In this document: piece after piece, positions 12,701 through 60,096 of the stretch | How positions within the stretch are numbered: the stretch's first letter is position 1 | How the letters are laid out: each line of letters starts with the position of its first letter | Assembly (NCBI GenBank): GCA_017609625.1 | Contig: JAFCDN010000004.1 | Span: 948 to 64,947 of the forward strand | Direction of reading: 5' to 3' | Origin: Candidatus Iainarchaeum sp. | Lineage (GTDB): Archaea; Iainarchaeota; Iainarchaeia; Iainarchaeales; 1-14-0-10-31-34 | DNA: 64,000 nucleotides | Translations under genes and position numbers: made by a program | The notes under the pieces: generated by a model | What the model was told of the DNA's origin: nothing | The model's input: only the letters and a program-made list of their open reading frames with translations | Databases searched by the model: none

Positions 12701-13621
12701 TTGATAATGGCTAAATGCGACAAGTGCAGCAAAAAAGCAAAACTGTTTTTAGCGTATGGCCCGCACAATTTTTGTTCAGAACATTTTAATTCTTTTTTTG
12801 AGCAGAGATTCAGGAAAACAATCAGAAGATATAAAATGCTCAAAAAGAATGATACAGTTGTAATAGGAGTTTCAGGAGGAAAAGATTCAGCCGTAACACT
12901 GCATTTGTTGAACAAATTTTATTCAAGGCCTCAGACAATCAAAGCATTAATTATTGACGAAGGTATTCCAAACTACAGGGATAAAGCAATAAAAATTGCA
13001 GTAAAAGAAGTAAAAGAAAAAGGAATTGAATTCAAGATAATGTCATACAAAGAAGAATTAGGAATGCAGATGACTGATGTAATGAAAAAAACAGGAAGAA
13101 AAAAAGTTTTAGGTTCAACCTGTGCTTTTTGCGGGCCTTTCAGGAGAAAATTATTAAATGACGGAGCAATTGAAATGCAGGCAACAAAACTTGCCACAGG
13201 ACATAATTTAGATGATGAAATCCAAAGCATTGCAATGAATTTTTTTGACAATGACTTAAAAAGAATGTCAAGGCTGGGGGCAGTAACAAAAGGAGGAAAA
13301 AAGCTTGTTCCAAGAATAAAGCCATTATGCCTTGCACCAGAAAGAGAAATTATTGCATATACTGAGTTAAATGAAATAAAATACTTTAAAGAGCATTGCT
13401 GTCCTTTTTCCTGGCAGGCAAAAAGAAACGAATTCAGGTCAATGTTAAACAAAATGGAAACAAAATTTCCCGGAACACATTATTCAATCCTTTCAACTTT
13501 TGAAAATCTTAAACCACTAATTAAAAACAGATTTAAAGAAGAAAAATTCTGCAAACAATGCGGTTCTCCTAGCTCAAAAGAATTGTGTTCTGTTTGTGAG
13601 AAACTATTAAAGCTTGCGTAA
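12701..13621 (+). CDS. PP-loop ATPase of the TtcA/TtuA/NcsA family (tRNA 2-thiolation)
   Basis: 306 aa; PP-loop SGGKDS; N-terminal CxxC...C..H and C-terminal CxxC...CxxC zinc fingers typical of TtuA/NcsA. Confidence 0.65.
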   Translation: MIMAKCDKCSKKAKLFLAYGPHNFCSEHFNSFFEQRFRKTIRRYKMLKKNDTVVIGVSGGKDSAVTLHLLNKFYSRPQTIKALIIDEGIPNYRDKAIKIAVKEVKEKGIEFKIMSYKEELGMQMTDVMKKTGRKKVLGSTCAFCGPFRRKLLNDGAIEMQATKLATGHNLDDEIQSIAMNFFDNDLKRMSRLGAVTKGGKKLVPRIKPLCLAPEREIIAYTELNEIKYFKEHCCPFSWQAKRNEFRSMLNKMETKFPGTHYSILSTFENLKPLIKNRFKEEKFCKQCGSPSSKELCSVCEKLLKLA

Positions 13622-14018: not shown

Positions 14019-14090
14019 GGACCTGTGGTCTAGTGGTATGACGTCTGCTTGACGTGCAGAAGACTGGCGGTTCGATTCCGCCCAGGTCCA
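14019..14090 (+). tRNA. tRNA-Val (anticodon GAC)
   Basis: GGACCTG acceptor pairs with CAGGTCC; anticodon arm TCTGC-TTGACGT-GCAGA; T arm GGCGG-TTCGATT-CCGCC; no encoded CCA. Confidence 0.85.
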
Positions 14091-41988: not shown

Positions 41989-42594
41989 ATGCGTTTAAGA
42001 ACTCTTTTCAGAATCTCGGATGTAAGACTATTATTAACAGTTTTAATACTGATAATTTTTTATGTTTACGACAAGCTTAATGTGCAGAATCTTCCCTTGC
42101 TTATTGCAATTCTAATTGCCACGTACTTGCTTTCTTCCTTTATTGTGATTTATGCAAGAAGATTCAGAAAATTCTATAAAGGAACTGCAATTGCTTTTGA
42201 TATGGGGGGAGTGTTAACTAAAGGAGAATATTTTACTGAACAGATAGAAGAAATTCCTGGAATGAAAGATTTAATGAAAGAACTAAAAAAACACCATTTG
42301 ATTGCAATCTGTTCAAACAACAACTGGGAAGCATATTTAGCTCATGAAAAAAAATACGGCTGGGATGAGATATTTGATGTAGAAGTTTTATCAGGAAAAT
42401 ACGGAATACAAAAACCAGATCAAAGAATCTACAAGATTTTGTTGAAAGAGTTGGGGGTTAAACCTCAAAACTGTGTTTTTGTTGACGACAGAGAAGAAAA
42501 TGTCAATACTGCAATCAAATTAGGAATGAAAGGAGTTCTTTTTACTTCCCGCGCAGATTTAATTCAAAAACTTAGAAAATGGAATTACTTATAA
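41989..42594 (+). CDS. HAD-superfamily hydrolase with N-terminal TM helices
   Basis: motif I FDMGGVL, motif IV VFVDDREENV; 201 aa. Confidence 0.55.
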   Translation: MRLRTLFRISDVRLLLTVLILIIFYVYDKLNVQNLPLLIAILIATYLLSSFIVIYARRFRKFYKGTAIAFDMGGVLTKGEYFTEQIEEIPGMKDLMKELKKHHLIAICSNNNWEAYLAHEKKYGWDEIFDVEVLSGKYGIQKPDQRIYKILLKELGVKPQNCVFVDDREENVNTAIKLGMKGVLFTSRADLIQKLRKWNYL

Positions 42595-43527
42595 AGTAGT
42601 AATCGGCCTTGTCTGAAGAATAAATAATTTGTCTTTTTCTAATCCAAACTCTATATCCTGCGGAAAATTATAATGTGCTTCAATTTTTTTGCATAGCCCT
42701 GCTAACTCAATTATTTTTTGTCCTGAAAGTTTCTGGTTTTCCTGTTCTGAAGTTTTAACTTTCACTTTCTGTGTTTTTCCTGCTTTCAAAGTCAGCAGGT
42801 GTTCCTGCTGGTTTACTTCAATATTTTCAATAAACATTTCTTTTTTGTTTACAACGTATTTATCCGGAGTGACTGCGCCGGAAACAACGCTTTCACCTAA
42901 ACCAAAAGCGGCTTCAATTATTATTTCTTCTCTGTTTTTTGTTATTGGATTTACTGTAAATACTACCCCGCTTGATTCTGATTCAACCATTTTTTGCACT
43001 ACTACTGCTACAGCAACTTTTTTTGAACTAAGTTTTTTTTCTATTCTGTAAAAAATCGCTCTAGGGGTAAACAAAGAACTCCAGCATTTTTTTACTGCTT
43101 GTATCAGCCCTTTTTTTTGGATATGCGTGTATGTTTCTAATTCTCCTGCCCATGAAGCATCTTTTGCATCTTCTGCTGTAGCAGAGCTTCTTACAGCAAC
43201 ATAATTTGCTTTCAGTGAAGAGAATTCTTTTAGAATTGATTTTTCTATTTCTGCAGGAACTTTTCCTTTTCCAATCTGTTTTCTAATATTCTCTGAAGCT
43301 TTGTTTACTGAATCAGTTTTTTTTGGATTAACTTTTTTTAATTCAGCTTTAATCACTTTTTCCAATTGATTTGCTTCTATAAAGTAGTTGAATGAATCCA
43401 CTAAAACAACAAAACCATCTGGAACAGGAATTTTTGAATTAAACATTTCTCCTAACTGCGCTCCTTTGCCTCCAGCAATTGAAACGCTTTTTTTATTGAG
43501 TTTTTTGAAAGGCTGAACAAAATTCAT
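42589..43527 (-). CDS. stand-alone PEP-synthase/PPDK-type ATP-grasp nucleotide-binding domain protein (PPDK_N)
   Basis: 312 aa; N-terminal SIAGGKGAQLGEM...IPVPDGFVV is the hallmark of the PEP synthase / pyruvate phosphate dikinase / rifampin phosphotransferase ATP-binding domain; ends ...ILQTRPIT with no His or TIM-barrel domains. Confidence 0.75.
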   Translation of the reverse strand: MNFVQPFKKLNKKSVSIAGGKGAQLGEMFNSKIPVPDGFVVLVDSFNYFIEANQLEKVIKAELKKVNPKKTDSVNKASENIRKQIGKGKVPAEIEKSILKEFSSLKANYVAVRSSATAEDAKDASWAGELETYTHIQKKGLIQAVKKCWSSLFTPRAIFYRIEKKLSSKKVAVAVVVQKMVESESSGVVFTVNPITKNREEIIIEAAFGLGESVVSGAVTPDKYVVNKKEMFIENIEVNQQEHLLTLKAGKTQKVKVKTSEQENQKLSGQKIIELAGLCKKIEAHYNFPQDIEFGLEKDKLFILQTRPITTL

Positions 43528-43549
43528 TTTCTCAACTCCATTTATTAAC

Positions 43550-44992
43550 TCACTTGAGTTTTTTAATTATTCCTTTTTTTGCATCAACTTCAATTAAATC
43601 ATTATCTTTAAGCAAATCTGTTGCGTGTTGGGTTCCAATAATACAAGGAATCCCAAATTCTCTGCTTATAATTGCAGCATGAGAAGTCATTCCTCCAGTA
43701 TCAGTTACTATTGCTGCAGCTTTTTTTATTGCTGGAACTAAATCAGGAGTAGTCATTGGAGAAACCAAAATGTTTCCTTTCTTCATTTTTGAAAGGTCTG
43801 ATGGCTTGAAAATTATCTTTACTTTTCCTGAAACTTTTCCCATGCAGGCTATTGTTCCTTTAATTTCGGCTTCAGGTTTTTCAAAATTCAGATTTTTCAT
43901 GAATTTTTTTCCTTTTAATCCAACATAAATAAACTGTTTTTTTCCTTTTTGAACATAAACCGAGTAATTCCATCTTTTCTTTAATTCTTTTCTCCATTTT
44001 TTAGGATTGCTTAAGGCTTTTTCTAATTCTTCTGCAAACAGATATCTGCTTTCTTTTAATTTAACTCCAATTCTTTTTGAAATCTCTTTTAATAAAGGTT
44101 CCATTAAATAAAGTGATTTAGACATCAAGCCTTTTCTGTATTCTTTAAAATAAGCTAATTCTCCTAACAGCAAAGCCATTTTCACTCCTTTAGTTTTTTT
44201 TGCTTTCTTTCTTGTTTTTTGAACTTTTATTTTCTCAGAGTTTATGGCTTTAATTATTTTTTCAGGTTTTTTTAGGCATTCTTTCAGAATTTTTTCAAAT
44301 TCTTTTTTTTCTAATTGATTTCCTTCATAATCATATGGAAGCCATTTCCATTCTTTAATATGTTTTTCAAAGTCTTTCCAGAACTTGCTTTTTTTGAATT
44401 CTTTGAATAAAGTGATTTTTTTCTTTTTTGCTTTTAATGCCAGCTTTGTCAATTCAAGTTTGTTTTTTGTTTCCCAAGAAAAACCCGCTGGAACAGATAA
44501 AACAGTAATAAGTTTTGTTGCTTTTTCAAACCCAAACTCTTTTTTTAATTGTTTTGAAGCCATTTTTTCCAAAGAAAAATCACACATAAAAGGAATTGCT
44601 GCAGGAATATAAGCATCAGAATAAGCTTTGCAGTATGCTTTGAATAATTTATTTAATCCTAAATTAGTTGTTTTTTTGTTAACTTTATTTGCTTTTCTTG
44701 CAACCTTAAGCAATTTTTTATTTCTTTTTTCAAAATCTTTCAACACTTTTTTTAATAAAAGTTTTTTTGAAACAATTTTTTCTGCTATTTTGTTTCCGCT
44801 GGAATGAAAATCTTCTCTGACAAAATAGCCTTTACTTTTTCCTTTTTCAAAATCAGTTAAAACGATTTTTTGTGAAGTTCCTGCATAACTTTTAATTCTA
44901 TTTGTAAAAACATCAAACAACAAATTGATTGGAAACAGACTGAGCTTTAGAGTGTATTGTTTATAGAACCCAGCTGAAGGCGTTTTTTTCAT
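43550..44992 (-). CDS. paralog 5 of 5: novel N-terminal domain + C-terminal PEP-utilizing phosphohistidine swivel domain
   Basis: 480 aa; C-terminus GNILVSPMTTPDLVPAIKKAAAIVTDTGGMTSHAAIISREFGIPCIIGT matches the PEP-utilizers mobile domain with the catalytic His; 4-nt overlap with the upstream paralog. Confidence 0.7.
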   Translation of the reverse strand: MKKTPSAGFYKQYTLKLSLFPINLLFDVFTNRIKSYAGTSQKIVLTDFEKGKSKGYFVREDFHSSGNKIAEKIVSKKLLLKKVLKDFEKRNKKLLKVARKANKVNKKTTNLGLNKLFKAYCKAYSDAYIPAAIPFMCDFSLEKMASKQLKKEFGFEKATKLITVLSVPAGFSWETKNKLELTKLALKAKKKKITLFKEFKKSKFWKDFEKHIKEWKWLPYDYEGNQLEKKEFEKILKECLKKPEKIIKAINSEKIKVQKTRKKAKKTKGVKMALLLGELAYFKEYRKGLMSKSLYLMEPLLKEISKRIGVKLKESRYLFAEELEKALSNPKKWRKELKKRWNYSVYVQKGKKQFIYVGLKGKKFMKNLNFEKPEAEIKGTIACMGKVSGKVKIIFKPSDLSKMKKGNILVSPMTTPDLVPAIKKAAAIVTDTGGMTSHAAIISREFGIPCIIGTQHATDLLKDNDLIEVDAKKGIIKKLK

Positions 44993-46476
44993 TTTTTCGC
45001 CCTCTTTAGTATTCTGATTATTCCATGATATGCGTCTAATTCTATTAGGTCGTTATCCTTTAAATATTCTGTTGCTTTTTGAACCCCAACAACACATGGT
45101 TTGTTTAATTCCCTTGAAACAATTGCTGCATGACATGTCATTCCACCCTGCTCTGTAACTATTCCTGCCGACCTTTTCATTGCAGGAACTAATTCAGGCT
45201 GGGTTGCAAGAGAAACCAGTATTTCTCCTTCAAATAATTTATCCATTTCTTCAATGCTGTTAACTATTTTTACTTTTCCTTTAATCAACCCAGGAGAAGC
45301 AATCTGGCCATTTAACTGGTTTTTCTTTTTTGAAACTTTTTCTCTTACAACCAGTTCATGGAATTTTTTTCTGGCTTTTTCTCCGAAAAAAACCTTGTCT
45401 CCGTTAACATCTGAAACCACAGTCATTAATTTGCTTCTTTTAAGCAGTTCTTTTTGGTTAAAAGGAATTTTTTTCATCAAATGTTCTCTTAATTCTCTTC
45501 TGGTTAAAAATCCCAAAAGGTTTTTTGGGATAAAATGTTTTTTTGAAACTACTTTGCATAACTTTGAGATTAAATAAAAAGAGCAAACCATAATTTCTTT
45601 TCTAAATCCTTTCAAAAAAATTATTTCCCTAGCTAAATCAAAAAAATATTCATCTTCTCTGCTTAACTTTAATTTTTTTTTTGCTTTTCTTATTTTTTTC
45701 TTTAATTCTTTTTTTTCTGTTTTGATTTTTTTTAGGTTGTATTCCAGTTCACTGCTTTTAATCAAATCCTTTATTTCTTCTTTATAGAATTCAATTGAAG
45801 CTTCAGGCCCGTTAAAACCAAAAGTTATCCACCCAAAGTTTTTTCTGTGCGCTTCCAATAATTTGTTTTTTTGCTTTTCTCTTAATTTTTTTGTTTTGAA
45901 TTTTTTTGAGATTAAAAGCAGTGCTTTTCTTTCTTTTGAAGAGAAAGTGTCATCTAACGGAGCAGTCAAAACTGAAAAATAATCTGCGCTTCTTTTGCTT
46001 AACTGTCTTTCTGAAATCAGCTTAATAAGTTTTTTGTTTAAATGATTTGTTAGAAGGTTGTTCCAGAAATCTATCCCAACAAAAGTCCAGCCGCTGTAAG
46101 TAACGTTTTTGTCGTATTTGTAAATCAAATCAAGGTATTTTACAATCTGCTTGTCTGAAAGAGAGTTTAAATCCATTGAATTGAATTTTTTCAGCAGATT
46201 AACCATTTTTTCTGCATAAAAAAAATGAATCTTTTTTTCTTTCCAGATTTTTTTCCTGTTTTTTTTGTATAACTTAAACTGGTGTTTTCCTACTTTAGCC
46301 CACCAATTAACATCCTGAGCCCATTCAATATGGCCTTTCTCCAATCTTATTACAGTGCACGGAGAAACACTTCCAAAAGGCTTTTTTGCGGTTTTTTCAT
46401 TCCATTCATCACAGTTAAAAGAATAGGCAAAGTAATTTGCATCAAATTCATGGATTGTAATCTGCAGTTTTTTCAT
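44989..46476 (-). CDS. paralog 4 of 5: N-terminal domain + PEP-utilizing phosphohistidine domain
   Basis: 495 aa; C-terminus ...GGMTCHAAIVSRELNKPCVVG; shared internal motifs (FxxLTxP, GWxxFGxxGP, LKGxRKE) with the other paralogs. Confidence 0.7.
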   Translation of the reverse strand: MKKLQITIHEFDANYFAYSFNCDEWNEKTAKKPFGSVSPCTVIRLEKGHIEWAQDVNWWAKVGKHQFKLYKKNRKKIWKEKKIHFFYAEKMVNLLKKFNSMDLNSLSDKQIVKYLDLIYKYDKNVTYSGWTFVGIDFWNNLLTNHLNKKLIKLISERQLSKRSADYFSVLTAPLDDTFSSKERKALLLISKKFKTKKLREKQKNKLLEAHRKNFGWITFGFNGPEASIEFYKEEIKDLIKSSELEYNLKKIKTEKKELKKKIRKAKKKLKLSREDEYFFDLAREIIFLKGFRKEIMVCSFYLISKLCKVVSKKHFIPKNLLGFLTRRELREHLMKKIPFNQKELLKRSKLMTVVSDVNGDKVFFGEKARKKFHELVVREKVSKKKNQLNGQIASPGLIKGKVKIVNSIEEMDKLFEGEILVSLATQPELVPAMKRSAGIVTEQGGMTCHAAIVSRELNKPCVVGVQKATEYLKDNDLIELDAYHGIIRILKRAKK

Positions 46477-48008
46477 TCTTTTCCGCTCTTTAATTTTTTA
46501 ACTATTCCGTGGTTTGCATTAACATTAATCAAATCTCCGTCTTCGAATACTTTTGTAGCAATTTTTGTTCCGATAACACAAGGTGTGTTTAATTCTCTGC
46601 TTACTATTGCAGCGTGGCATGTTACTCCTCCGATATCTGTTACTATCGCAGAAGCTTTTTTCATTGCAGGGACAAGGTTTGGATTGGTTGCATGAGAGAC
46701 AAGAATGTCCCCTTCATTCATTTTCTTCATTTCTTCCGGAAGGTTGATTATTTTTGCAATTCCTTTAACCATTCCAGGAACTGCAGTACTTCCCTCCAGT
46801 TTGGTTATCTTGTATTCTTTTGGACTCGGAACCTGCTTAGCATAAAATTCTGCTTTTTTCCCCGTCAATGTCTTGCTTTTCCCATTAATGCAGATATAAA
46901 CGCTAAACCTGAATCTCTCATTCAATTCTTGCGGATTAAAAGCATTCTTCAGAATTGCGTTTTTGAATTCGCTTGGCCAAATACATCTTAATTGATTAAG
47001 TGAAAGCCCAAGTCTTTTTCCTACTTCTCTTAAAAAAGGCTCATAAGAAAAAAAAGAATAGTAAAGTGAATCTTTTCTCAAACCTTTCAGGTAAATAATC
47101 TGCCTTGAAATATTTAATAACTTCTGGTGTTTAACATCAACTGAAAGTTTTTGAACAAGTTCTTTTTGTTTTTCTTTAACTTTAACAATCCGCTCACTCA
47201 TTTTTTCCAAAAGCAAGGCAAGATTTTCTTCTGATTTAATTAAGCCTTTAATCTGTTGGATAAAATAATCTTTTTCCCAAGCAGGGCCAATATACATATA
47301 AGGAAGCCATCTGAAATTAATGTAATGATTTTCAATTTTTTTGCTGATTTTTTTATTTATTAAAGGAAGCAGTTTAATGATTTCCTCTGGTTCTTTTTCA
47401 AGAAAAAGTTTTCTTGTTTCAGTATCATTTAACACAATTAAAGAAAGCTCTATGATTTGTTTTTCCTGTTTAAGCTGAAAAGATTCATTGTGAGGGGTTG
47501 TCAGCAGGCTGAACACTTCTGCAACTCTTAAAGAAAGTTTTTTTTCCTCAATTTTTTGTTTTAAATATTTTTTTAAGTAATTTGAAAGGAGTTCATGGTC
47601 CCATTCAATCATTGTGGGAAGCATTCCAAAAACATGGCATTTACTGTGAATTTGCATATGTTTGGAAAAAACTTTTTCCAGCTCTTTTTTTGACATCACA
47701 GAAAAATCTGTTTTTTTCATTTTTTTTGAGCTTTCAATTAATTTGCCTGCTGTCTTTTCCAAGAGTCTATTTATTTTAATCAGCCAATCTGGATTGCTTA
47801 AAGTTTTTTCAAAAGTTTTTTTTCCCGCTGCAGTAAACTTTTTTCTTGGCCAACAAAAAAATACGTTTCCTTTCTCAAACACAGACAAAACATCAATTGT
47901 CATACCAATATCTTTTTTCATTCCTTTCCCCCAATATTCGTAAACAGGTTCAAGCAAATGAAAATGTGTTTTTGGAATCTCTTCTGCAATAAACCAGTCT
48001 TTTTTCAT
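46473..48008 (-). CDS. paralog 3 of 5: N-terminal domain + PEP-utilizing phosphohistidine domain
   Basis: 511 aa; C-terminus ...GGVTCHAAIVSRELNTPCVIG; clear similarity to paralog 2 throughout. Confidence 0.7.
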   Translation of the reverse strand: MKKDWFIAEEIPKTHFHLLEPVYEYWGKGMKKDIGMTIDVLSVFEKGNVFFCWPRKKFTAAGKKTFEKTLSNPDWLIKINRLLEKTAGKLIESSKKMKKTDFSVMSKKELEKVFSKHMQIHSKCHVFGMLPTMIEWDHELLSNYLKKYLKQKIEEKKLSLRVAEVFSLLTTPHNESFQLKQEKQIIELSLIVLNDTETRKLFLEKEPEEIIKLLPLINKKISKKIENHYINFRWLPYMYIGPAWEKDYFIQQIKGLIKSEENLALLLEKMSERIVKVKEKQKELVQKLSVDVKHQKLLNISRQIIYLKGLRKDSLYYSFFSYEPFLREVGKRLGLSLNQLRCIWPSEFKNAILKNAFNPQELNERFRFSVYICINGKSKTLTGKKAEFYAKQVPSPKEYKITKLEGSTAVPGMVKGIAKIINLPEEMKKMNEGDILVSHATNPNLVPAMKKASAIVTDIGGVTCHAAIVSRELNTPCVIGTKIATKVFEDGDLINVNANHGIVKKLKSGKE

Positions 48009-49528
48009 TTTTTCAGCCTCTTAATTACTCCTTTTGTTGCATCAACCTCTACTTTTTCGCTGTCTTTTAGGATTTTTGTTGCAACTTTTGTGCCAATAAC
48101 ACAAGGAATATTCAATTCACGAGAAACAATTGCCGCATGGCATGTAATTCCCCCTATATCAGTTATTATTGCCCCTGCTTTTTTCATTGCTGGAACCAAA
48201 TTCGGATTGGTTGAATGAGAAACCATTACATCTCCTTGATTCATCTTAAAGATTTCGTTTGGATGGTTTACTACTTTCACTCTGCCTTTAACAAAGCCAG
48301 GAACTGCAGTGCTTCCAAACAATTTGTTTGTTTTTTTTATTTTTATTGACTTGAAAACTTTATTGAAAAAAGCTCTTGCTTTTTTTCCTGACAAAATTTC
48401 TTCTTTTTTATTAATCCATTTAACTATAACAAAATCTATTCTGCTGTTCAACTCTTTTTCAGAAAAATTTTTGTAAAGTAAAGCAGGCTTTAATTCTTCT
48501 GGAAGAAAAAATCTTGCCTGAGTTAAAGAAAGATGCAGTCTTCTTCCAATTTCCCTAAAAAGTTTTTCTGAGACAAAACAGGAAAAATACATTGCATCTT
48601 TTCTATAGGCTTTCAAGTAAACTGAATCAGACAATATTTTGAAGTAAAGTTTTTCTTTTTCAGCTAAAGGCAGTTTTTTCATGAAATTCTTTTTTTTCTT
48701 TATTAAGCTTTTTGGCTCTCCTTTCCTTAATTTTATTTCTTCTTTTGTTAAGTATTGTTTTGCCATAGAAGACAAAATTTCAATAAAATAAGCTTTATTC
48801 CACGCAGGGCCTTCATACATAAAAGGCAGCCACAGCCATTTATTATAGTGCTTGTTTAATTTTTTTGAAAAAACAGGAAAATTTGAAAGTTGTTTTTCTA
48901 TTTCTTTTTCTGATTTCTTTCTGAACAAATTAAATAAGTTTGGTTTTGAAAGCAGTTCTAAATACAGATTAAAAATTTCTTTTTCCTGTTTTTGCATATT
49001 GGAGAGTTTTTCAGGAGTTGAAACCAAAGAAAAAGCTTCTGCAAGAGATTCATTTAAATCATATCTTTCAATTTTTTTCTTTAAAACTGACTGAATGAAC
49101 TTAGTGTACAATTCATTTTCCCATTCAGTTAACTGCAAAACATGCCCTCCATTGCTGTGCGAAAGAGCATAACTTTTAATGTATTCTGCAGCCAAATCTG
49201 CAAGTTTTTTGTCTGAAATTTTTTTCAGGTTTGTTTTAAGGATTTTCTGGGAAACTTTTTTGTATTTTCTTGCAAACTTCAGCAGATTCTTGTGTTCTTC
49301 TTCAACTAGTTCAGGGTTTTTTACTATTTTTTTTATTAAGCTTTTCGCGGCTTTATCAAATTGTTTTCTGTCAAACAAAATTTCAGTATTTTTTGAATGA
49401 AAAGAACATGCTCCGTCAATTCTTATCCCGTACTTTTCTTTTAATTCAACACAAACATATCTCTGAAATGCAAGCATGTGAGCAGGATGAAGTTTTCTGA
49501 TGGATTCCATTGAAAACCATCTGCTCAT
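48005..49528 (-). CDS. paralog 2 of 5: N-terminal domain + PEP-utilizing phosphohistidine domain
   Basis: 507 aa; C-terminus ...GGITCHAAIVSRELNIPCVIG. Confidence 0.7.
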   Translation of the reverse strand: MSRWFSMESIRKLHPAHMLAFQRYVCVELKEKYGIRIDGACSFHSKNTEILFDRKQFDKAAKSLIKKIVKNPELVEEEHKNLLKFARKYKKVSQKILKTNLKKISDKKLADLAAEYIKSYALSHSNGGHVLQLTEWENELYTKFIQSVLKKKIERYDLNESLAEAFSLVSTPEKLSNMQKQEKEIFNLYLELLSKPNLFNLFRKKSEKEIEKQLSNFPVFSKKLNKHYNKWLWLPFMYEGPAWNKAYFIEILSSMAKQYLTKEEIKLRKGEPKSLIKKKKNFMKKLPLAEKEKLYFKILSDSVYLKAYRKDAMYFSCFVSEKLFREIGRRLHLSLTQARFFLPEELKPALLYKNFSEKELNSRIDFVIVKWINKKEEILSGKKARAFFNKVFKSIKIKKTNKLFGSTAVPGFVKGRVKVVNHPNEIFKMNQGDVMVSHSTNPNLVPAMKKAGAIITDIGGITCHAAIVSRELNIPCVIGTKVATKILKDSEKVEVDATKGVIKRLKK

Positions 49529-51012
49529 GCTTTCACCTTTCTTATAATTCCTTTTCCTGCGTCTATTTCAATTAGTTCATTATTCTTTAAAACTCTTGTA
49601 GCAATTTTGGTTCCAATCACACACGGCTTTTTAAATTCCCTGCTCATTATTGCAGCATGAGAAAGCATTCCTCCTTCGTCAGTTATTATTGCAACAGCTT
49701 TTTTCATTGCAGGAACAAACTGAGGCAAAGTAGTTCCTGCAACTAAAACATAGCCTTTTGGGAAGGAAGGTAAATCATTCATTGAATTAACTAACTTAAC
49801 TTTTCCTTTAACTTTTCCAGGAAAACCTGTTTCTCCTTGAATCTCAATCATTTCCTGGATTTTTTTCAATTCAGCCAAATAAGGTTCAGAATATTCTTTC
49901 AGTTCTCTTCCAACCAAAACCCTGACTTTTCCTTTCTCAAAAATTAATGCATGACCTTCTTCTCTTGCATTTATTTCATCCAAATGTTTTTTAGTTAAAG
50001 GTTTTTCAAAAAGAGAAAGAAGCTCTTTATTCTGCATTTCAACTATTTGGTTAAAGGAAAGAGAAAATCTTTTTGCTGTTTCAATCATAAAAGGTCTCAT
50101 CTTAAAGGCAACAAAAGAATAGTATTCATCACAAAGAGTTGAAGCATATAAAGCAAAACGAATATTCTTTATTTTTTGTTTTTCTTTTTCTGAAAGATTC
50201 AGCTTAAGCACCATTTCTTTTACTTGTTCTCTGTTTCTCTTGAAACGGTTCTTTTCTTCAAAAAGCTCTTTTTCCAACTTTGAAACTGGTTTTCTGATCA
50301 GCTTTTCCATTTTTTTTTCAAAATCTTTTTCGGTTAAAGGCTCGCCGTCATACATGTACACTCCAAAAAAACCAAATTTTCCAGCATGCTTTTTCAGTTC
50401 TTTGTTAAACAATCCTTTGCTTAATCCTTTCCTCTTTTTTACAGCGATTTTAAGCAAATTAATTTTCTCTTTATGCATTTCAATAGGTTTATACAAACTC
50501 AGTATTGTTTCCATATAATTGTTTAATTTTTTAGGGTTGCTGACTTTTTCTTTCAGAAAAGCAATTATTTCTTGAGGGTAATATTCCTGCAAAACTCTGT
50601 AATCATAAGTAAAGGCAAAAACCTTCACATATAAATCAAAATACTTTTTAAACAGACTTTTAAGTTCTTTATTTGATTTTTTCTCTAGATTCATTCTGTT
50701 TAGCTTTTCAGAAAACTTTTTTGCTTTAATGAATTCATTAAACCAGGACTGCATCCAAGGAATAATTTTGTCTTCATTTTTTTTGCACATTTGAATATAA
50801 TTTTTCCAGTCTTCTGTGGAAACTCCCCTTCCACCAAAAGCCTGTCTGTAAGTTTTTATTTTAGTTTTTTTGTCATGGAATTCAGTGAAATGGTCTTTTA
50901 GTCCGTAAGCAACTGCATCCACAACCAAAATATTAACAGGTTTTCCTTTTCTGCTGAACTCTATCCAATCCATAATTAAACCTTTTTTGGCTTTGCTTTT
51001 TTTTGGATTCAT
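49525..51012 (-). CDS. paralog 1 of 5: N-terminal domain + PEP-utilizing phosphohistidine domain
   Basis: 495 aa; C-terminus ...GGMLSHAAIMSREFKKPCVIG; most divergent N-terminal region; first gene of the operon. Confidence 0.7.
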   Translation of the reverse strand: MNPKKSKAKKGLIMDWIEFSRKGKPVNILVVDAVAYGLKDHFTEFHDKKTKIKTYRQAFGGRGVSTEDWKNYIQMCKKNEDKIIPWMQSWFNEFIKAKKFSEKLNRMNLEKKSNKELKSLFKKYFDLYVKVFAFTYDYRVLQEYYPQEIIAFLKEKVSNPKKLNNYMETILSLYKPIEMHKEKINLLKIAVKKRKGLSKGLFNKELKKHAGKFGFFGVYMYDGEPLTEKDFEKKMEKLIRKPVSKLEKELFEEKNRFKRNREQVKEMVLKLNLSEKEKQKIKNIRFALYASTLCDEYYSFVAFKMRPFMIETAKRFSLSFNQIVEMQNKELLSLFEKPLTKKHLDEINAREEGHALIFEKGKVRVLVGRELKEYSEPYLAELKKIQEMIEIQGETGFPGKVKGKVKLVNSMNDLPSFPKGYVLVAGTTLPQFVPAMKKAVAIITDEGGMLSHAAIMSREFKKPCVIGTKIATRVLKNNELIEIDAGKGIIRKVKA

Positions 51013-57054: not shown

Positions 57055-58281
57055 TTACTTTTCTTCTTTTTTTTCTAGAAAGGCTATAGCTTTATCCACA
57101 TCCTCTTCTGCAAGGAGTTCAAAAAACCTTCTGACATCAAAAGCAGAATCAAAAGCAGTTTCAGAAAGGTTTTTTACTAAAAGCTCAATTCCCAAAGCAG
57201 AAACTGATTTTTTTGTTTTATGCAGTTCACGCAGTTCCTGAATTTTTTTCTTGAAAGAATCAGAAGAAAAATCTTTTTGAATGGAAAAAATTGCTTTTCC
57301 TTCAAATTCCTGCAGAACTTTCTGTAAATCAACATCTGCTTGGGTTAAGCCTTTAGCCAAAGTACCTTTTAATCTTATTCTAATTAAAGGAATCAAATCA
57401 GAAGAGTTTTCTGAAAGAAAAGACTGGATTTTTTCTCTGAATTTTGAAAGGATTTCATCAGGAAAAGCTTCATTAAAAGAAATTTTTTCATAAAACAGTT
57501 TTCTTTGCTTTGAAAGAGGCAGAAAAGCGGTCAGCATTGTTAAAGAGTTAATTAAAACAATGCCTTTTTGTTTTTCTGATTCAAATTTTTTCATCTGGGT
57601 TACAATAGTAGAGCCAGGCATTAACAATCTTCCTCCCTCAAAGAGTTTTTCTGCAAACCAATGCAAATGACCATTAATAACTAAATCAAAATCTTTTGGA
57701 AGGTTAGACATTGAAATAGTTACAGCCATTTCATCATCTGTCGGAAGGAATTCTTTAATGGATTGATGCATTAAAAAAATATTTTTTGTATCAGGAAGAG
57801 GTTGGGGGTTATAAACTTTCAAAACATCTAATGCTTTTTGTTCCGGCACTCCACCAAAACCGTGAATTGCAACTTTTTCTGAATCTTTTTCTGCAATCAA
57901 ATAATTTGCGTGAATATAAAAAAGAAATCCTGCACTCTGCAATACTTCCAAAGGATTTCGAAAATCTTTGGTGCGGATTTCATGTGTGCCATGGATTGCA
58001 ATAACTGGAATTCCGTCAAAATCCAGTTCTCTTCCTTCCTGTAAAATTTTTATTTCAGGTTTTTTTGCTTTTCTGGAAAGATTAAATAAATAAAATACTT
58101 TGCTCCAGGTTTCCAGAGAAGGAATCTTTGAATCAAAAACATCTCCAGGCAGTAAAATCAAATCTGCATTGTTTTCTATTGCCAAAGAAAAAGCTTCTAA
58201 TGCATTATTTAATGCTTCATCTTTTCTGGCATTTTTCTCTGAAAAACCCAAATGAGTGTCAGAGATTACAGCTATCTTCAT
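57055..58281 (-). CDS. mre11: Mre11-type DNA repair phosphoesterase
   Basis: calcineurin-like motifs DTHLG, GDVFD, HGTHE, GHLH in Mre11/SbcD order; 408 aa; no rad50 adjacent. Confidence 0.65.
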   Translation of the reverse strand: MKIAVISDTHLGFSEKNARKDEALNNALEAFSLAIENNADLILLPGDVFDSKIPSLETWSKVFYLFNLSRKAKKPEIKILQEGRELDFDGIPVIAIHGTHEIRTKDFRNPLEVLQSAGFLFYIHANYLIAEKDSEKVAIHGFGGVPEQKALDVLKVYNPQPLPDTKNIFLMHQSIKEFLPTDDEMAVTISMSNLPKDFDLVINGHLHWFAEKLFEGGRLLMPGSTIVTQMKKFESEKQKGIVLINSLTMLTAFLPLSKQRKLFYEKISFNEAFPDEILSKFREKIQSFLSENSSDLIPLIRIRLKGTLAKGLTQADVDLQKVLQEFEGKAIFSIQKDFSSDSFKKKIQELRELHKTKKSVSALGIELLVKNLSETAFDSAFDVRRFFELLAEEDVDKAIAFLEKKEEK

Positions 58282-59171
58282 TTTTCCACCAGCTCAAGAG
58301 TTTCTTTAAAAAGTTCTTTTGGATAAAAAGTTAAAGGAGAAAAAACAACAAACGATGTTTGATTCTGCAGTTCCTGAATTTTTTTTAATGAATCTTCTTC
58401 TTTTGCTGTGCTTAAAACTAAAGCAGAAAGAAAATCCTTTTCTTTTTTCAGTTCAGAAAAAAGAACTGGTCTGAATTCTTGAAAAGAATTCCACGGAGAA
58501 AGTAGTTCAAGATTTTTTTCTATTTTCTGGTTTGTTTTCTGGATTACAGGAAAAATATTACAGCCTCTTTTCAGCATTAAAAAACCTGAAACAAGCTCTT
58601 CTTTTTTTCCTTCCATCAATAAACCGACTTTTCCTTCTACCCCAACCGGAAGGCCTTTAACTCCTGAAATTTTTTCTGAATACAAAAAGACTTTTTTTCC
58701 TATAATGTCAGCAAAGATTTCTTTTTTTGGAGAAGAAAGGTTTACACTCAAAGATTCTATTGAATCCATTATTTTTTGGCCGCATTGAATTGCAACATCC
58801 TGTGAAGAAAAAGAGTGTTTTCCGTTTCTGGAAATGCGCAGAGCAAAAGAATCGTTTTTTGAAAGGGTTTTCTCTGCAAATTTCAGGAACAGGTTCTGCA
58901 AATCCAAAAGAGAAGAAAAAGAATGCTGTTCTGCTAAAGAAAAAGCATGGATTCCAAAAAATTTTTTCATCAAAAAAACTGCTTTTTTGCTGTCATCCGT
59001 TGAAAGTATTAATATGCCTGAAAACTTGCCTAAAACTTTTACATCTATTTTATTTTTTTTGAAACTGTTCTTTAGATTTGAAATAAGTTTTTTCAGGAAA
59101 AACTGTTTAACAAAATAGGTTTTTAAGTGAACCTCAGAAGCAGTTCTTAAAACAAAAACAGTTTTATCCAT
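58278..59171 (-). CDS. ThiI-like protein: N-terminal ferredoxin-like/THUMP domains + degenerate PP-loop region
   Basis: 297 aa; the N-terminus aligns with ThiI; C-terminal KVGLLMEGKKEELVSGFLMLKRGCNIF is the ThiI PP-loop start with SGGIDS replaced by EGKKEE. Confidence 0.55.
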   Translation of the reverse strand: MDKTVFVLRTASEVHLKTYFVKQFFLKKLISNLKNSFKKNKIDVKVLGKFSGILILSTDDSKKAVFLMKKFFGIHAFSLAEQHSFSSLLDLQNLFLKFAEKTLSKNDSFALRISRNGKHSFSSQDVAIQCGQKIMDSIESLSVNLSSPKKEIFADIIGKKVFLYSEKISGVKGLPVGVEGKVGLLMEGKKEELVSGFLMLKRGCNIFPVIQKTNQKIEKNLELLSPWNSFQEFRPVLFSELKKEKDFLSALVLSTAKEEDSLKKIQELQNQTSFVVFSPLTFYPKELFKETLELVEK

Positions 59172-59243
59172 AAAAGAAAATAAAAGAGAAAAAGTTAAAA
59201 CACTAAATTAACTTATACATAATATATGTGCTTGATTCAAAAT

Positions 59244-59408
59244 TTAACTGTATTTTGATGCACTATATCCTAGTGCGCCAATTCCAAACCACATTATTGC
59301 CAAAGCTCCCCAATTTGCAGCATAAGGACTCCAGGCCCATGCTACGCCTATTGCAAAAAGGATTAAGCCAAAAACAATGCTTCCTTTTTTTATAAATTCA
59401 CTCATCAA
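59244..59408 (-). CDS. small hydrophobic protein (54 aa)
   Basis: MSEFIKKGSIVFGLILFAIGVAWAWSPYAANWGALAIMWFGIGALGYSASKYS; sits between the two ThiI-like genes; under 60 aa so absent from the track. Confidence 0.25.
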   Translation of the reverse strand: MMSEFIKKGSIVFGLILFAIGVAWAWSPYAANWGALAIMWFGIGALGYSASKYS

Positions 59409-59469
59409 ATCCCTCCGAAAATCAAAACAATGATATAAATAATAGTCTTTAATTAATAAACTTTGCGTT

Positions 59470-60096
59470 TTAAGCCTGAGTTTTTGCTGTTTTTGTTTGT
59501 TTTTCGAACTGTAAGAAAAGGTTTTGTATTAATTCAGTGAATTCTGCTTTTTCTTCTTCTTCTGACACTCTGAATTGAATAGATTTTGTTGCAGGCTTTT
59601 CTGGACCTAAAGCATCACAGGTTTCCGGACCGACAGAAAACTCATAAAAACCGAGTTTTTTTGATAAATCAATTATTTCCTGTTTATCAAAACAAAGTAA
59701 AGGCCTTAAAACTGGTTTTTTTATTCCAAAAGAGATTGAAACAAGGTTTGAAAGAGTCTGGGAAGACACTTGCCCAATATTTTCTCCTGTAACAATAAAA
59801 TCAAACTTTCTTTTTTCACAGATTTTTTCTGCAACCTTTAACATTAAGCGTTTCATTAAAACAAAATAAAACTTTCTTTTGGTTTTCTGCACGATTTTTT
59901 CCAATGCATCAGAGTAATCCAAAACAAATAGTTCTGAATTCAGTTTTTCTGCTGCTTTCTTTGATTTTTCTATTGACTGGGCCCCAGTAATCTTTGTAGA
60001 AGAAAAATGCAGGCAATACAATTCATTTTTTTCTTTTGCCAGAAAGCCTGCAACTGGGCTGTCAATTCCTCCGCTTAAAAGAAGCAATGCTTTCAT
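59470..60096 (-). CDS. stand-alone ThiI-type PP-loop ATPase domain (tRNA 4-thiouridine synthase catalytic domain)
   Basis: 208 aa; LLLSGGIDSPVAGFL PP-loop; ThiI-specific IVTGENIGQVSSQTLSNL and RPLLCFDKQEII motifs; no THUMP. Confidence 0.7.
   Translation of the reverse strand: MKALLLLSGGIDSPVAGFLAKEKNELYCLHFSSTKITGAQSIEKSKKAAEKLNSELFVLDYSDALEKIVQKTKRKFYFVLMKRLMLKVAEKICEKRKFDFIVTGENIGQVSSQTLSNLVSISFGIKKPVLRPLLCFDKQEIIDLSKKLGFYEFSVGPETCDALGPEKPATKSIQFRVSEEEEKAEFTELIQNLFLQFEKQTKTAKTQA

What the first reader, a model, noticed from the sequence alone, without database searches (positions are those of the whole stretch)
58278..60096. ThiI function split into a THUMP protein with a dead PP-loop and a stand-alone live PP-loop protein, in permuted order
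The 59470..60096 gene is a complete ThiI-type PP-loop ATPase domain (SGGIDS, IVTGENIGQVSSQTL, RPLLCFDKQEII) with no THUMP RNA-binding domain. The 58278..59171 gene aligns to full-length ThiI over its N-terminal ferredoxin-like and THUMP domains and continues into the PP-loop region. There the ATP-binding signature has degenerated: KVGLLMEGKKEEL stands where kALLLLSGGIDSPV would be, and the protein ends about 120 aa into the domain. The catalytic gene comes first and the RNA-binding gene second, with a 54-aa hydrophobic ORF between them. This suggests a heteromeric tRNA s4U synthetase in which RNA recognition and catalysis sit on different chains, or a decaying duplicate.
Basis: partly seen in the sequence, partly recalled or inferred. 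Interest (0 to 1): 0.55.

Follow-up and report, generated by a model that had tools for sequence, protein, structure and literature searches.

The report
Two-gene (split) tRNA thiouridine synthetase candidate
In this small archaeal (DPANN-type) genome, the tRNA 4-thiouridine enzyme ThiI appears as two separate conserved proteins, an RNA-binding half with an inactive ATP-site domain and a stand-alone catalytic half, which probably pair up; this would also assign a function to the orphan crystal structure PH1313.

Summary
The 208-aa gene is a complete ThiI-type PP-loop ATPase domain. All catalytic motifs are conserved and it has no RNA-binding domain. The 297-aa gene has the ferredoxin-like and THUMP domains plus a shortened PP-loop-like domain. 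That domain lacks SGGxDS, the ATP/dimer loop and the catalytic cysteine.

It is not a decaying duplicate. It belongs to a large, well-conserved family whose solved member is PH1313 (1VBK), a "ThiI-like" protein of untested function. The loss of the PP-loop is shared by the whole family.

The stand-alone catalytic protein also belongs to a large family, and databases often misname it QueC.

The two genes are adjacent only in the window's own clade (the window plus five species). Elsewhere they are dispersed. Each is separately found next to ThiF/ThiS/TtuA sulfur-relay genes.

Canonical ThiI works in trans across a homodimer held together by its ATPase domains. The best reading is therefore a heterodimeric ThiI, with confidence about 0.5.

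Not tested: physical pairing, co-occurrence in the same genomes, and absence of a full-length thiI.

Verdict: a new variant of a known kind, of moderate interest.

The parts
59470..60096 (-). Stand-alone ThiI-type PP-loop ATP pyrophosphatase (208 aa), the proposed catalytic subunit
   Evidence: PF02568 165.4 bits over profile positions 5-197/197, and TIGR00342 positions 174-369. AF2 model pLDDT 91.8. Foldseek match to T. maritima ThiI 4KR6/4KR7: TMq 0.88, rmsd 1.8-1.9 A, 35-36% identity.
60058..60075 (-). PP-loop ATP-binding motif SGGIDS (aa 8-13 of the 208-aa protein)
   Evidence: S8, G9, G10, D12 and S13 are 100% conserved in 118 stand-alone family members.
59617..59619 (-). Cys160 codon of the 208-aa protein, in the same column as the Cys of three full-length ThiI references
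   Evidence: Cys is present in 118 of 118 stand-alone family members. It aligns with Cys in three of the four full-length ThiI references used. The equivalence to E. coli Cys344 is inferred from the papers read.
59244..59408 (-). Conserved 54-aa ORF with two hydrophobic segments, lying between the two ThiI-related genes. A GGAGG lies upstream, and the likely start is the ATG at 59405.
   Evidence: 72-89% identical in L011-L015 and 40% in L016, which is more conserved than either flanking gene. No family match.
58278..59171 (-). PH1313-type 'ThiI-like' protein (297 aa) with NFLD, THUMP and pseudo-PPase domains, the proposed tRNA-binding subunit
   Evidence: PF22025 and PF02926 hits. 1VBK by sequence: E 2.6e-18. 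Family profile to 1VBK: E 5.6e-63. AF2 pLDDT 95.4. Foldseek to 1VBK: TM 0.85/0.82.
58938..59138 (-). N-terminal ferredoxin-like domain (aa 12-78)
   Evidence: PF22025 ThiI_fer, 27.8 bits against a cutoff of 25.
58677..58910 (-). THUMP domain (aa 88-165)
   Evidence: PF02926, 39.1 bits against a cutoff of 20.6. F109, R115, S123 and G131 are invariant in the family. They fall in the strand and helix that form the 3'-CCA groove in T. maritima ThiI.
58281..58643 (-). Pseudo-PPase domain (aa 177-297): Rossmann-like, with no PP-loop, no GQVxSQT loop and no catalytic Cys
   Evidence: Alignments A1 and A3. [quoted passage not shown]
58596..58613 (-). EGKKEE (aa 187-192), the position homologous to SGGIDS
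   Evidence: Column-by-column alignment with full-length ThiI proteins P0021, P0022 and P0025.
57055..58281 (-). Mre11 homologue (408 aa). Its start overlaps the stop of the THUMP gene (ATGA). It is a context gene, probably co-transcribed.
   Evidence: Metallophos hit. Mre11 NCBIfam hits. All solved-structure hits are Mre11. The pairing with the THUMP gene is kept down to 34% identity.

Best explanation
The two genes encode the two subunits of a heteromeric ThiI/TtuI-type tRNA 4-thiouridine (s4U8) synthetase.

The 297-aa PH1313-type chain would bind the tRNA acceptor stem and 3'-CCA end with its NFLD and THUMP domains. It would use its catalytically dead but conserved pseudo-PPase domain as a docking module. 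The 208-aa chain is a complete PPase domain. It would dock onto that module through the same PPase-PPase interface that holds the canonical ThiI homodimer together. It would then adenylate U8 with ATP at its PP-loop and replace the activated oxygen with sulfur, using the invariant Cys160. This rebuilds one of the two composite active sites of canonical ThiI, in which the RNA-binding domains of one subunit feed the catalytic domain of the other.

The sulfur donor is probably a thiocarboxylated ThiS/SAMP-like protein or a persulfide, not an Fe-S cluster.

Shown here: domain content, motif status, folds, family sizes and gene neighbourhoods. Inferred: the physical pairing, the substrate (U8 of tRNA) and the sulfur donor.
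For: 1. Exact complementarity. The two proteins tile TIGR00342 (positions 6-205 and 174-369). One has RNA-binding domains without catalytic motifs and the other has all catalytic motifs without RNA-binding domains.
2. Both are under strong constraint, so both are functional. In the 208-aa family SGGxDS, QVSSQT, K138 and C160 are 98-100% conserved, and R131 and L133 are 96-97% conserved, across 118 sequences. The pseudo-PPase domain is as conserved as the THUMP domain. The models are confident, with pLDDT 95.4 and 91.8.
3. Folds. The 297-aa model matches PH1313 at TM 0.85/0.82 and ThiI at TMq 0.77. The 208-aa model matches the ThiI PPase domain at TMq 0.88 and 1.8-1.9 A.
4. Mechanistic precedent. 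ThiI is an obligate homodimer joined mainly by its PPase domains. The NFLD and THUMP domains of one subunit present U8 to the PPase of the other (PMC4041423). PH1313 crystallised as a dimer (PMC9957541).
5. Gene order. The block PP-loop gene, 54-aa ORF, THUMP gene is conserved in the window and five further species at 63-67% identity. Because both families are otherwise dispersed, this adjacency looks like a secondary arrangement that has been retained.
6. Both families separately sit next to sulfur-relay genes. Stand-alone PP-loop genes lie directly downstream of ThiF in L092, L093, L105 and L136; in L092 a Gly-Gly-ending ThiS follows, and TtuA is nearby. THUMP-only genes abut ThiS-TtuA-ThiF or cysteine desulfurase/NifU/TtuA genes in L008-L010, and ThiF in L174.
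7. No other ThiI or THUMP homologue is present in the 64-kb window.
8. The substrate feature is present: the window's tRNA-Val has U at position 8.
Against: - Adjacency is confined to one clade. THUMP-only loci at 48%, 41% and 34% identity, and the Woesearchaeota-type loci, have no ThiI-type PP-loop gene in the DNA held, which reaches up to about 10 kb each side.
- None of about 17 stand-alone PP-loop loci outside the clade has a THUMP-only neighbour.
- Named hits suggest partly different taxonomic centres. The PP-loop family is labelled Diapherotrites, Aenigmatarchaeota and Micrarchaeota. The THUMP-only family is labelled Woesearchaeota and Nanoarchaeota. Universal co-occurrence is therefore unproven.
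- The dimer-interface/ATP loop (GENxGQVxSQ) is deleted in the pseudo-PPase domain, so the interface cannot be identical to the canonical one.
- The AT-rich spacers with TATA-like boxes, and a T-tract before the THUMP start codon, allow separate transcription.
- No complex model could be made.
- The presence of a full-length thiI elsewhere in the genome is untested.
Confidence: 0.5

Rival explanations
1. The two proteins work independently and their adjacency in this clade is incidental. The 208-aa protein would be a self-sufficient PP-loop sulfurtransferase, acting on tRNA with another RNA-binding partner or on another substrate. The PH1313-type protein would be a non-catalytic tRNA-binding factor that serves a different enzyme, for example the TtuA/NcsA-type thiolase, or acts as a tRNA chaperone.
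For: Both families are mostly found apart. In Woesearchaeota-type loci the THUMP-only gene overlaps or abuts a TtuA/NcsA-type PP-loop gene rather than a ThiI-type one. The stand-alone PP-loop gene forms its own tight operon with ThiF and ThiS and no THUMP gene. The window also encodes a TtuA/NcsA-like protein at 12701..13621.
Against: A ThiI PPase domain has no known way to select U8 without the NFLD and THUMP domains; the CCA 'molecular ruler' resides in THUMP. The retained pseudo-PPase domain is most simply explained as a docking surface for a PPase partner. The adjacency is retained across six species-level lineages in genomes that otherwise shuffle these genes.
Confidence: 0.3
2. The PH1313-type protein is functionally tied to the downstream Mre11 homologue rather than to the PP-loop protein. 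It could be a nucleic-acid-end-binding accessory, or part of a UV/damage-response operon in which s4U acts as a sensor.
For: The THUMP-to-Mre11 gene pair overlaps by ATGA in the window. It is conserved at 63-67%, 48%, 41% and 34% identity, far beyond the PP-loop adjacency. No Rad50-like gene lies next to this Mre11.
Against: Woesearchaeota-type and other members of the family, and the loci holding them, have no Mre11 neighbour. The neighbour is an ordinary Mre11 homologue by every match. Compact DPANN genomes often keep operons of unrelated genes. The NFLD and THUMP invariants match the tRNA CCA groove.
Confidence: 0.05
3. The 297-aa gene is a decaying duplicate of thiI that is on its way to becoming a pseudogene.
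For: It lacks the PP-loop, the ATP/dimer loop and the catalytic Cys, and it is C-terminally truncated relative to ThiI.
Against: The same architecture occurs in at least 150 clusters at 50% identity and in a crystallised Pyrococcus protein. The 'dead' domain is as conserved as the THUMP domain. The ORF is intact in every orthologue examined. The AF2 model has pLDDT 95.4.
Confidence: 0.02

Closest known systems
[quoted passage not shown]
   Same: Same three-domain architecture of NFLD, THUMP and a shortened PP-loop-like domain. Same degenerate segment in place of SGGxDS. Similar length (307 versus 297 aa). The family profile matches it at E 5.6e-63 over full length, and the model superposes at TM 0.85/0.82.
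   Different: Only 24% identical, and from a hyperthermophilic euryarchaeon rather than a DPANN-type genome. Its partner and activity are unknown; the literature states that its activity is unconfirmed. Whether a stand-alone PP-loop gene accompanies it in Pyrococcus was not testable here.
Canonical single-chain ThiI/TtuI (B. anthracis 2C5S, T. maritima 4KR6), the class without a rhodanese domain
   Same: Together the two window proteins contain every domain and motif of this class: NFLD, THUMP, PP-loop, the GENxGQVxSQT loop, the RPL..K segment and the catalytic Cys. The expected chemistry is ATP-dependent adenylation of U8 followed by sulfur substitution. The trans-acting dimer logic is also shared.
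   Different: The functions lie on two chains. The RNA-binding chain carries an extra dead PPase domain. The gene order is reversed relative to the domain order. The result would be one composite active site per heterodimer rather than two.
[4Fe-4S]-dependent archaeal TtuI (M. maripaludis, P. furiosus)
   Same: An archaeal s4U8 enzyme without a rhodanese domain, with the conserved catalytic-domain cysteine.
   Different: The CxxC pair that ligates the cluster is absent from all 120 stand-alone proteins examined, so an Fe-S mechanism is unlikely here.
Ncs6/Ncs2 (Ctu1/Ctu2) tRNA 2-thiolation heterodimer
   Same: As recalled from general knowledge, an active PP-loop subunit pairs with a paralogue that has lost the PP-loop signature, and sulfur comes from a ubiquitin-like thiocarboxylate (Urm1). 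The review read here says only that the role of Ncs2 in the complex is still unclear.
   Different: It belongs to a different PP-loop family (PF01171 type), has no THUMP domain, targets U34 and is eukaryotic. This is an analogy, not homology of the pairing.
Tan1/THUMPD1 with Kre33/NAT10 (THUMP 'partner proteins')
   Same: A THUMP protein with no catalytic activity of its own acts as a tRNA adaptor for a separate enzyme. The 'partner protein' class is listed in the THUMP review.
   Different: The partner is an acetyltransferase, Tan1 has no pseudo-PPase domain, and the modification made is ac4C12.
Two-subunit archaeal GMP synthetase (a separate ATPPase subunit, e.g. M. jannaschii 6JP9)
   Same: Precedent for an archaeal PP-loop enzyme whose ATP-pyrophosphatase domain is a separate polypeptide. 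It appears among the hits of the 208-aa protein.
   Different: Different reaction and a different partner (a glutamine amidotransferase), and no pseudo-enzyme domain is involved.

Membership tests
ThiI/TtuI tRNA uracil 4-sulfurtransferase (TIGR00342), as a single protein | One polypeptide that scores above the equivalog cutoff (264.5 bits) and covers NFLD, THUMP and PPase | tested here: not met
   The 297-aa protein scores 108.7 bits over positions 6-205 and the 208-aa protein 161.7 bits over positions 174-369. Neither passes alone. Together they tile the model.
ThiI/TtuI (function reconstituted by the pair) | NFLD and THUMP RNA-binding module | tested here: met
   PF22025 and PF02926 are above cutoff in the 297-aa protein. 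The fold matches 1VBK, 2C5S and 4KR7.
ThiI/TtuI (function reconstituted by the pair) | PP-loop SGGxDS, the GENxGQVxSQT ATP/dimer loop and a conserved catalytic-domain Cys | tested here: met
   All are present in the 208-aa protein and 98-100% conserved in its family. All are absent from the 297-aa protein.
ThiI/TtuI (function reconstituted by the pair) | Dimer through PPase domains, with catalysis in trans | not testable with these tools
There is only a literature precedent for the homodimer.
ThiI/TtuI (function reconstituted by the pair) | s4U8 formation on tRNA | not testable with these tools
   Requires biochemistry or complementation.
ThiI class with a rhodanese domain (E. coli type) | C-terminal rhodanese domain carrying the persulfide Cys | tested here: not met
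   Neither protein has a rhodanese hit.
[4Fe-4S] TtuI subclass | CxxC plus a third Cys to ligate the cluster | tested here: not met
   None of the 120 stand-alone family proteins has CxxC. The query has FVLMKR where the Fe-S-type reference P0203 has CVLCKS.
PH1313-type ThiI-like proteins (NFLD, THUMP, pseudo-PPase) | About 260-310 aa, three domains, PP-loop signature absent, C-terminal part of the PPase domain deleted | tested here: met
   Sequence match to 1VBK at E 2.6e-18. Profile match at E 5.6e-63. TM 0.85/0.82. None of 46 members has SGGxDS.
Stand-alone ThiI-type PP-loop proteins (PF02568 only; related to NF006222/PRK08349) | About 200 aa, with a full PF02568 domain and nothing else | tested here: met
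   PF02568 covers positions 5-197/197. The top 120 homologues are 117-229 aa, nearly all about 200 aa.
Stand-alone ThiI-type PP-loop proteins (PF02568 only; related to NF006222/PRK08349) | Score above the NF006222 subfamily cutoff (251 bits) | tested here: not met
   133.9 bits. The protein is related to that curated subfamily but is not a member of it.
Tan1/THUMPD1-like adaptor | THUMP protein without a PPase-like domain, partner of an acetyltransferase | tested here: not met
   The best matches are ThiI and PH1313. The C-terminal domain is PPase-like. The solution structure of the THUMPD1 THUMP domain is only a weak partial hit (rank 39).

The most novel reading that the evidence does not exclude
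PH1313-type proteins could be a general class of pseudo-enzyme tRNA adaptors. Their dead PPase domain would recruit, in trans, whichever stand-alone PP-loop sulfurtransferase the lineage has: a ThiI-type PPase in this clade, or a TtuA/NcsA-type enzyme in Woesearchaeota. Sulfur would be delivered by a ThiS/ThiF ubiquitin-like relay. This would amount to a modular, multi-subunit tRNA thiolation system across DPANN archaea and Thermococcales. It would finally assign a function to the 2005 orphan structure 1VBK, and it would bear on the open question of how ThiI enzymes lacking both a rhodanese domain and an Fe-S cluster obtain sulfur.
Probability: 0.3. Interest if true: 0.65.

Novelty: new variant of a known kind. 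Interest (0 to 1): 0.5.

Why it matters
- **An orphan structure.** PH1313 has been a solved structure without a function since 2005, and reviews still list its activity as unconfirmed. A partner subunit would explain why it looks like ThiI yet cannot bind ATP.
- **A natural dissection of ThiI.** A two-chain ThiI would separate RNA recognition from catalysis. It would give a heterodimer with a single composite active site, which is convenient for structural and mechanistic work on trans catalysis.
- **The sulfur donor.** The tight ThiF, PP-loop, ThiS operons of the catalytic half suggest a testable sulfur donor for ThiI enzymes that have neither a rhodanese domain nor an Fe-S cluster. The literature read here describes that mechanism as unclear.
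- **Annotation.** At least 13 of the 120 closest stand-alone ThiI-type proteins are named "7-cyano-7-deazaguanine synthase" by NCBI, and the THUMP-only proteins are labelled "hypothetical". tRNA-modification inventories of DPANN archaea are therefore probably wrong on s4U.

Tried and rejected
- **Modelling the pair.** I built a linker fusion of the two chains with eight paired orthologues plus unpaired family members.
- **Reference-genome scan with the THUMP-only family.** The single peptide pattern used also occurs in ordinary ThiI. About 70 of the 80 loci were therefore canonical fused thiI genes, and only about 10 were informative.
- **Metagenome scan from the PP-loop side.** About 13 stand-alone loci were usable.
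- **Same-genome co-occurrence.** I compared contig lengths between the two hit lists. They match only for the window's own clade, and the lists are truncated at 120, so this is inconclusive.
- **Literature.** Searches for a described split ThiI or a DPANN ThiI found nothing.
- **Sulfur-relay genes in the window.** I found no ThiF, no ThiS and no small Gly-Gly-ending protein, only a TtuA/NcsA-like gene 45 kb away.
- **Two unannotated ORFs in L174.** I tested them as possible hidden PP-loop proteins. They match neither profile and their sequences are strongly hydrophobic.
- **Promoter and terminator scan.** It was uninformative: it uses bacterial consensus sequences and the counts were at the shuffle level.
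- **Pseudogene reading.** Rejected because of the family-wide conservation.


Full report
**Observation.** The minus strand carries, in order of transcription, a 208-aa ORF (59470..60096), a 54-aa hydrophobic ORF (59244..59408), a 297-aa ORF (58278..59171) and a 408-aa ORF (57055..58281). The last one's start overlaps the 297-aa stop codon by ATGA.

The 208-aa protein matches PF02568 (ThiI PP-loop domain) end to end, at 165.4 bits over positions 5-197/197, and has no RNA-binding domain. The 297-aa protein matches ThiI_fer (PF22025) and THUMP (PF02926) above their cutoffs. It has only a sub-threshold match to the first third of PF02568.

Against the ThiI equivalog model TIGR00342 the two proteins tile the 373 positions (6-205 and 174-369). 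Neither reaches the cutoff alone. No other ThiI, THUMP or ThiI-type PP-loop ORF exists in the 64-kb window.

**The 297-aa protein.** Its best solved relative is PH1313 of Pyrococcus horikoshii (1VBK, 307 aa), not a canonical ThiI.
- A profile of 46 family members hits 1VBK at E 5.6e-63 over full length, against 5e-50 and 1.7e-47 for the full-length ThiI structures. PH1313 shows the same degenerate segment where SGGxDS should be.
- The AlphaFold2 model is very confident (pLDDT 95.4, pTM 0.89). It superposes on 1VBK at TM 0.85/0.82 over the whole chain, ahead of 2C5S and 4KR7 at TMq 0.77.
- In alignment with full-length archaeal ThiI, SGGIDS is replaced by EGKKEE, the GENxGQVxSQT loop is deleted or replaced, and the chain stops before the catalytic cysteine. 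The KRGC and (F/R)PL elements are kept.

This is a family property, not a local decay:
- None of 46 members has a PP-loop.
- The pseudo-PPase domain is as conserved as the NFLD and THUMP domains. Mean top-residue frequency is 0.56 versus 0.54 and 0.50. Identity to distant members is 34% versus 26% and 22%.
- The exhaustive search of 1.84 billion representatives returns at least 150 clusters at 50% identity. All are 214-343 aa long, cover the full profile and score above 247 bits.
- Where a source names the hits, the names are Woesearchaeota, Nanoarchaeota, Diapherotrites and Micrarchaeota.

The literature calls PH1313 a "ThiI-like protein" or a "truncated form of a TtuI", states that its activity has never been confirmed, and notes that it crystallised as a dimer. 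The family-invariant THUMP residues (F109, R115, S123, G131) fall in the strand and helix that form the 3'-CCA groove of T. maritima ThiI.

**The 208-aa protein.** It is a complete, apparently live ThiI PPase domain. The model has pLDDT 91.8. It matches T. maritima ThiI at TMq 0.88 and 1.8-1.9 A over 205 columns, with 35-36% identity.

It belongs to a large family of stand-alone proteins. There are 3402 hits at E <= 1e-10, and the best 120 are 117-229 aa, nearly all about 200 aa. Where a source names them, the names are Diapherotrites, Micrarchaeota and Aenigmatarchaeota, and the protein name given is frequently "7-cyano-7-deazaguanine synthase".

Across 118 members, S8, G9, G10, D12, S13, G104, Q109-T114, P132, K138 and C160 are 98-100% conserved, and R131 and L133 are 96-97% conserved. 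Cys160 sits in the same column as the Cys of three of the four full-length ThiI references. None of the 120 has the CxxC of the [4Fe-4S] subclass, and there is no rhodanese domain. It is related to the curated stand-alone subfamily NF006222 but scores below its cutoff (133.9 versus 251 bits).

**Gene neighbourhoods.** The block GGR-like gene (divergent), PP-loop gene, 54-aa ORF, THUMP gene, mre11, then convergent acs and acd genes is kept in five further species-level genomes at 63-67% identity of the THUMP protein (L011-L015).

The 54-aa ORF is 72-89% identical in those genomes. That is more conserved than either neighbour, so it is a real small membrane-protein gene.

Beyond that clade the PP-loop gene is not nearby:
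- At 48% identity (L016) only the 54-aa ORF, the THUMP gene and mre11 remain.
- At 41% (L001/L017) and 34% (L173) only the THUMP gene and mre11 remain.
- Other THUMP-only loci (L020, L044, L073, L008-L010, L174) have no ThiI-type PP-loop gene in the DNA held, up to about 10 kb each side.
- None of about 17 stand-alone PP-loop loci outside the clade has a THUMP-only neighbour. These genes sit among translation genes instead, for example inside the ribosomal-protein cluster in L172.

Both families nevertheless associate independently with the ubiquitin-like sulfur relay:
- Stand-alone PP-loop genes lie directly downstream of a ThiF/E1 gene in L092, L093, L105 and L136.
- In L092 the arrangement is ThiF, then the PP-loop gene with overlapping stop and start, then a 71-aa ThiS-like protein ending in Gly-Gly. 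A TtuA/NcsA-like gene lies about 0.7 kb further on.
- THUMP-only genes of the Woesearchaeota type are convergent with a ThiS-TtuA/NcsA-ThiF operon (L008, L010).
- In L009 the THUMP-only gene overlaps a co-directional 288-aa TtuA-like gene, with cysteine desulfurase and NifU genes upstream. In L174 a ThiF gene is nearby.
- An association between E1-like genes and ThiI in archaea was noted in 2010 (PMC2948915).

**Mechanism.** Canonical ThiI is an obligate homodimer. Its interface (about 3720 A^2) is formed mainly by the PPase domains. The NFLD and THUMP domains of one subunit hold the acceptor stem and 3'-CCA end, and they place U8 at the PPase active site of the other subunit (PMC4041423).

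A chain with NFLD, THUMP and a dead PPase-like domain, paired with a free live PPase domain, is exactly what is needed to rebuild one such composite site. This explains why the dead domain is kept under selection, as a docking module.

The reversed gene order and the pseudo-PPase domain retained on the THUMP chain argue against a simple fission. They favour duplication followed by complementary loss, with the adjacency in this clade arising secondarily.

What is shown: domains, motifs, folds, family conservation and neighbourhoods. What is inferred: heterodimerisation, U8 as the target, and the sulfur donor. The ThiS-type thiocarboxylate is suggested by operons in other lineages. The window itself has no ThiF or ThiS.

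**Weaknesses.**
- The adjacency is clade-restricted.
- The named taxa of the two families only partly overlap.
- The canonical dimer-interface loop is missing from the pseudo-domain.
- The spacers between the genes contain TATA-like boxes and a T-tract, so they may be separately transcribed.
- I could not model the complex.
- I could not test genome-wide co-occurrence or the absence of a full-length thiI.

I therefore give the heteromer reading about 0.5. The "independent functions" rival gets about 0.3. It includes the possibility that PH1313-type proteins serve TtuA-type enzymes. A functional tie to Mre11 gets about 0.05. The pseudogene reading gets about 0.02.

**Comparison with known systems.** The 297-aa protein is a member of the PH1313 family, and the 208-aa protein is a stand-alone PF02568 protein. 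Neither is, by itself, a ThiI by the curated cutoff.

Functionally, the pair would work like the ThiI class without a rhodanese domain (2C5S, 4KR6), but on two chains. Three analogies exist:
- Ncs6/Ncs2, an active PP-loop subunit with a dead paralogue; the review read here says only that the role of Ncs2 is still unclear, and the rest is from general knowledge.
- Tan1/THUMPD1 with Kre33/NAT10, a THUMP adaptor for a separate enzyme.
- The two-subunit archaeal GMP synthetase, which has a separate ATPPase subunit.

I found no paper describing a split ThiI.

**Verdict.** The pair is best described as a candidate two-subunit variant of ThiI built from two large, poorly annotated archaeal families, one of which contains the orphan structure PH1313. 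It is a new variant of a known kind, of moderate interest (0.5), and it is readily testable.

Noticed in passing
window 57055..58281 (-) with 58278..59171 (-); also L001, L011-L017, L173: The THUMP-only gene followed by an Mre11 homologue (ATGA overlap in the window) is conserved at 63-67%, 48%, 41% and 34% identity. That is much further than the PP-loop adjacency. No Rad50-like gene lies next to this Mre11. In L001 a 106-aa ORF with no family match sits between the two genes.
   Followed up: partly
window 59244..59408 (-): A 54-aa ORF with two hydrophobic segments and a GGAGG upstream. It is 72-89% identical in five related species and 40% in L016, which is more conserved than either flanking gene. 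It matches no known family.
   Followed up: partly
window 42589..51012 (-): Five tandem genes of about 480-511 aa (43550..51012). The three that were scanned each end in a PEP-utilizers mobile domain (PF00391) and have no hit for their N-terminal 400 aa. They are followed by a separate 312-aa PPDK_N (ATP-binding) gene at 42589..43527. This is an unusual split and amplified PEP-synthase/PPDK-like arrangement.
   Followed up: partly
L008 8001..10675, L010 8001..10734, L009 5371..9687: In Woesearchaeota-type contigs the THUMP-only gene abuts a ThiS-TtuA/NcsA-ThiF operon. In L009 it overlaps a co-directional 288-aa TtuA-like gene whose match starts at profile position 23 (the N-terminal part is missing), with cysteine desulfurase and NifU genes upstream. 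The THUMP-only protein may serve a different PP-loop enzyme there.
   Followed up: partly
L092 94..3450; also L093, L105, L136: A stand-alone ThiI-type PP-loop gene in a tight operon: a ThiF/E1-like gene (stop overlaps the PP-loop start), the PP-loop gene, then a 71-aa ThiS-like protein ending in Gly-Gly, with a TtuA/NcsA-like gene nearby. This suggests a ubiquitin-like thiocarboxylate as the sulfur donor for this family.
   Followed up: partly
window 12701..13621 (+): A TtuA/NcsA-like PP-loop protein (PF01171, with a C-terminal Cys4 zinc-finger-like hit). It lies beside the L15e, RNase P p30, Rpp14 and proteasome alpha genes. The same TtuA and RNase P p30 proximity is seen in L008-L010.
   Followed up: partly
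protein P0020 (406 aa): A full-length ThiI-like protein whose PP-loop is degenerate (SINIGRTTD instead of SGGIDS) but which carries CxxC-type cysteine motifs (YYCSLCN, CPFCP). It may be another pseudo-enzyme or an altered-chemistry variant.
   Followed up: no
one search hit list (P0028, P0056, P0058, P0067, P0073 and others): Stand-alone ThiI-type PP-loop proteins are named '7-cyano-7-deazaguanine synthase' (QueC) in NCBI records, although PF02568 is by far their best match. This looks like a systematic annotation error in DPANN genomes.
   Followed up: partly
window 14019..14090 (+): The only tRNA in the window, tRNA-Val(GAC), has T (U) at position 8, so the presumed substrate position is present.
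   Followed up: yes
L158 913..2097: A ThiI gene that appears broken into an 80-aa N-terminal ORF and a 314-aa ORF. It is probably a frameshift or an assembly error in a canonical thiI, not a true split.
   Followed up: no
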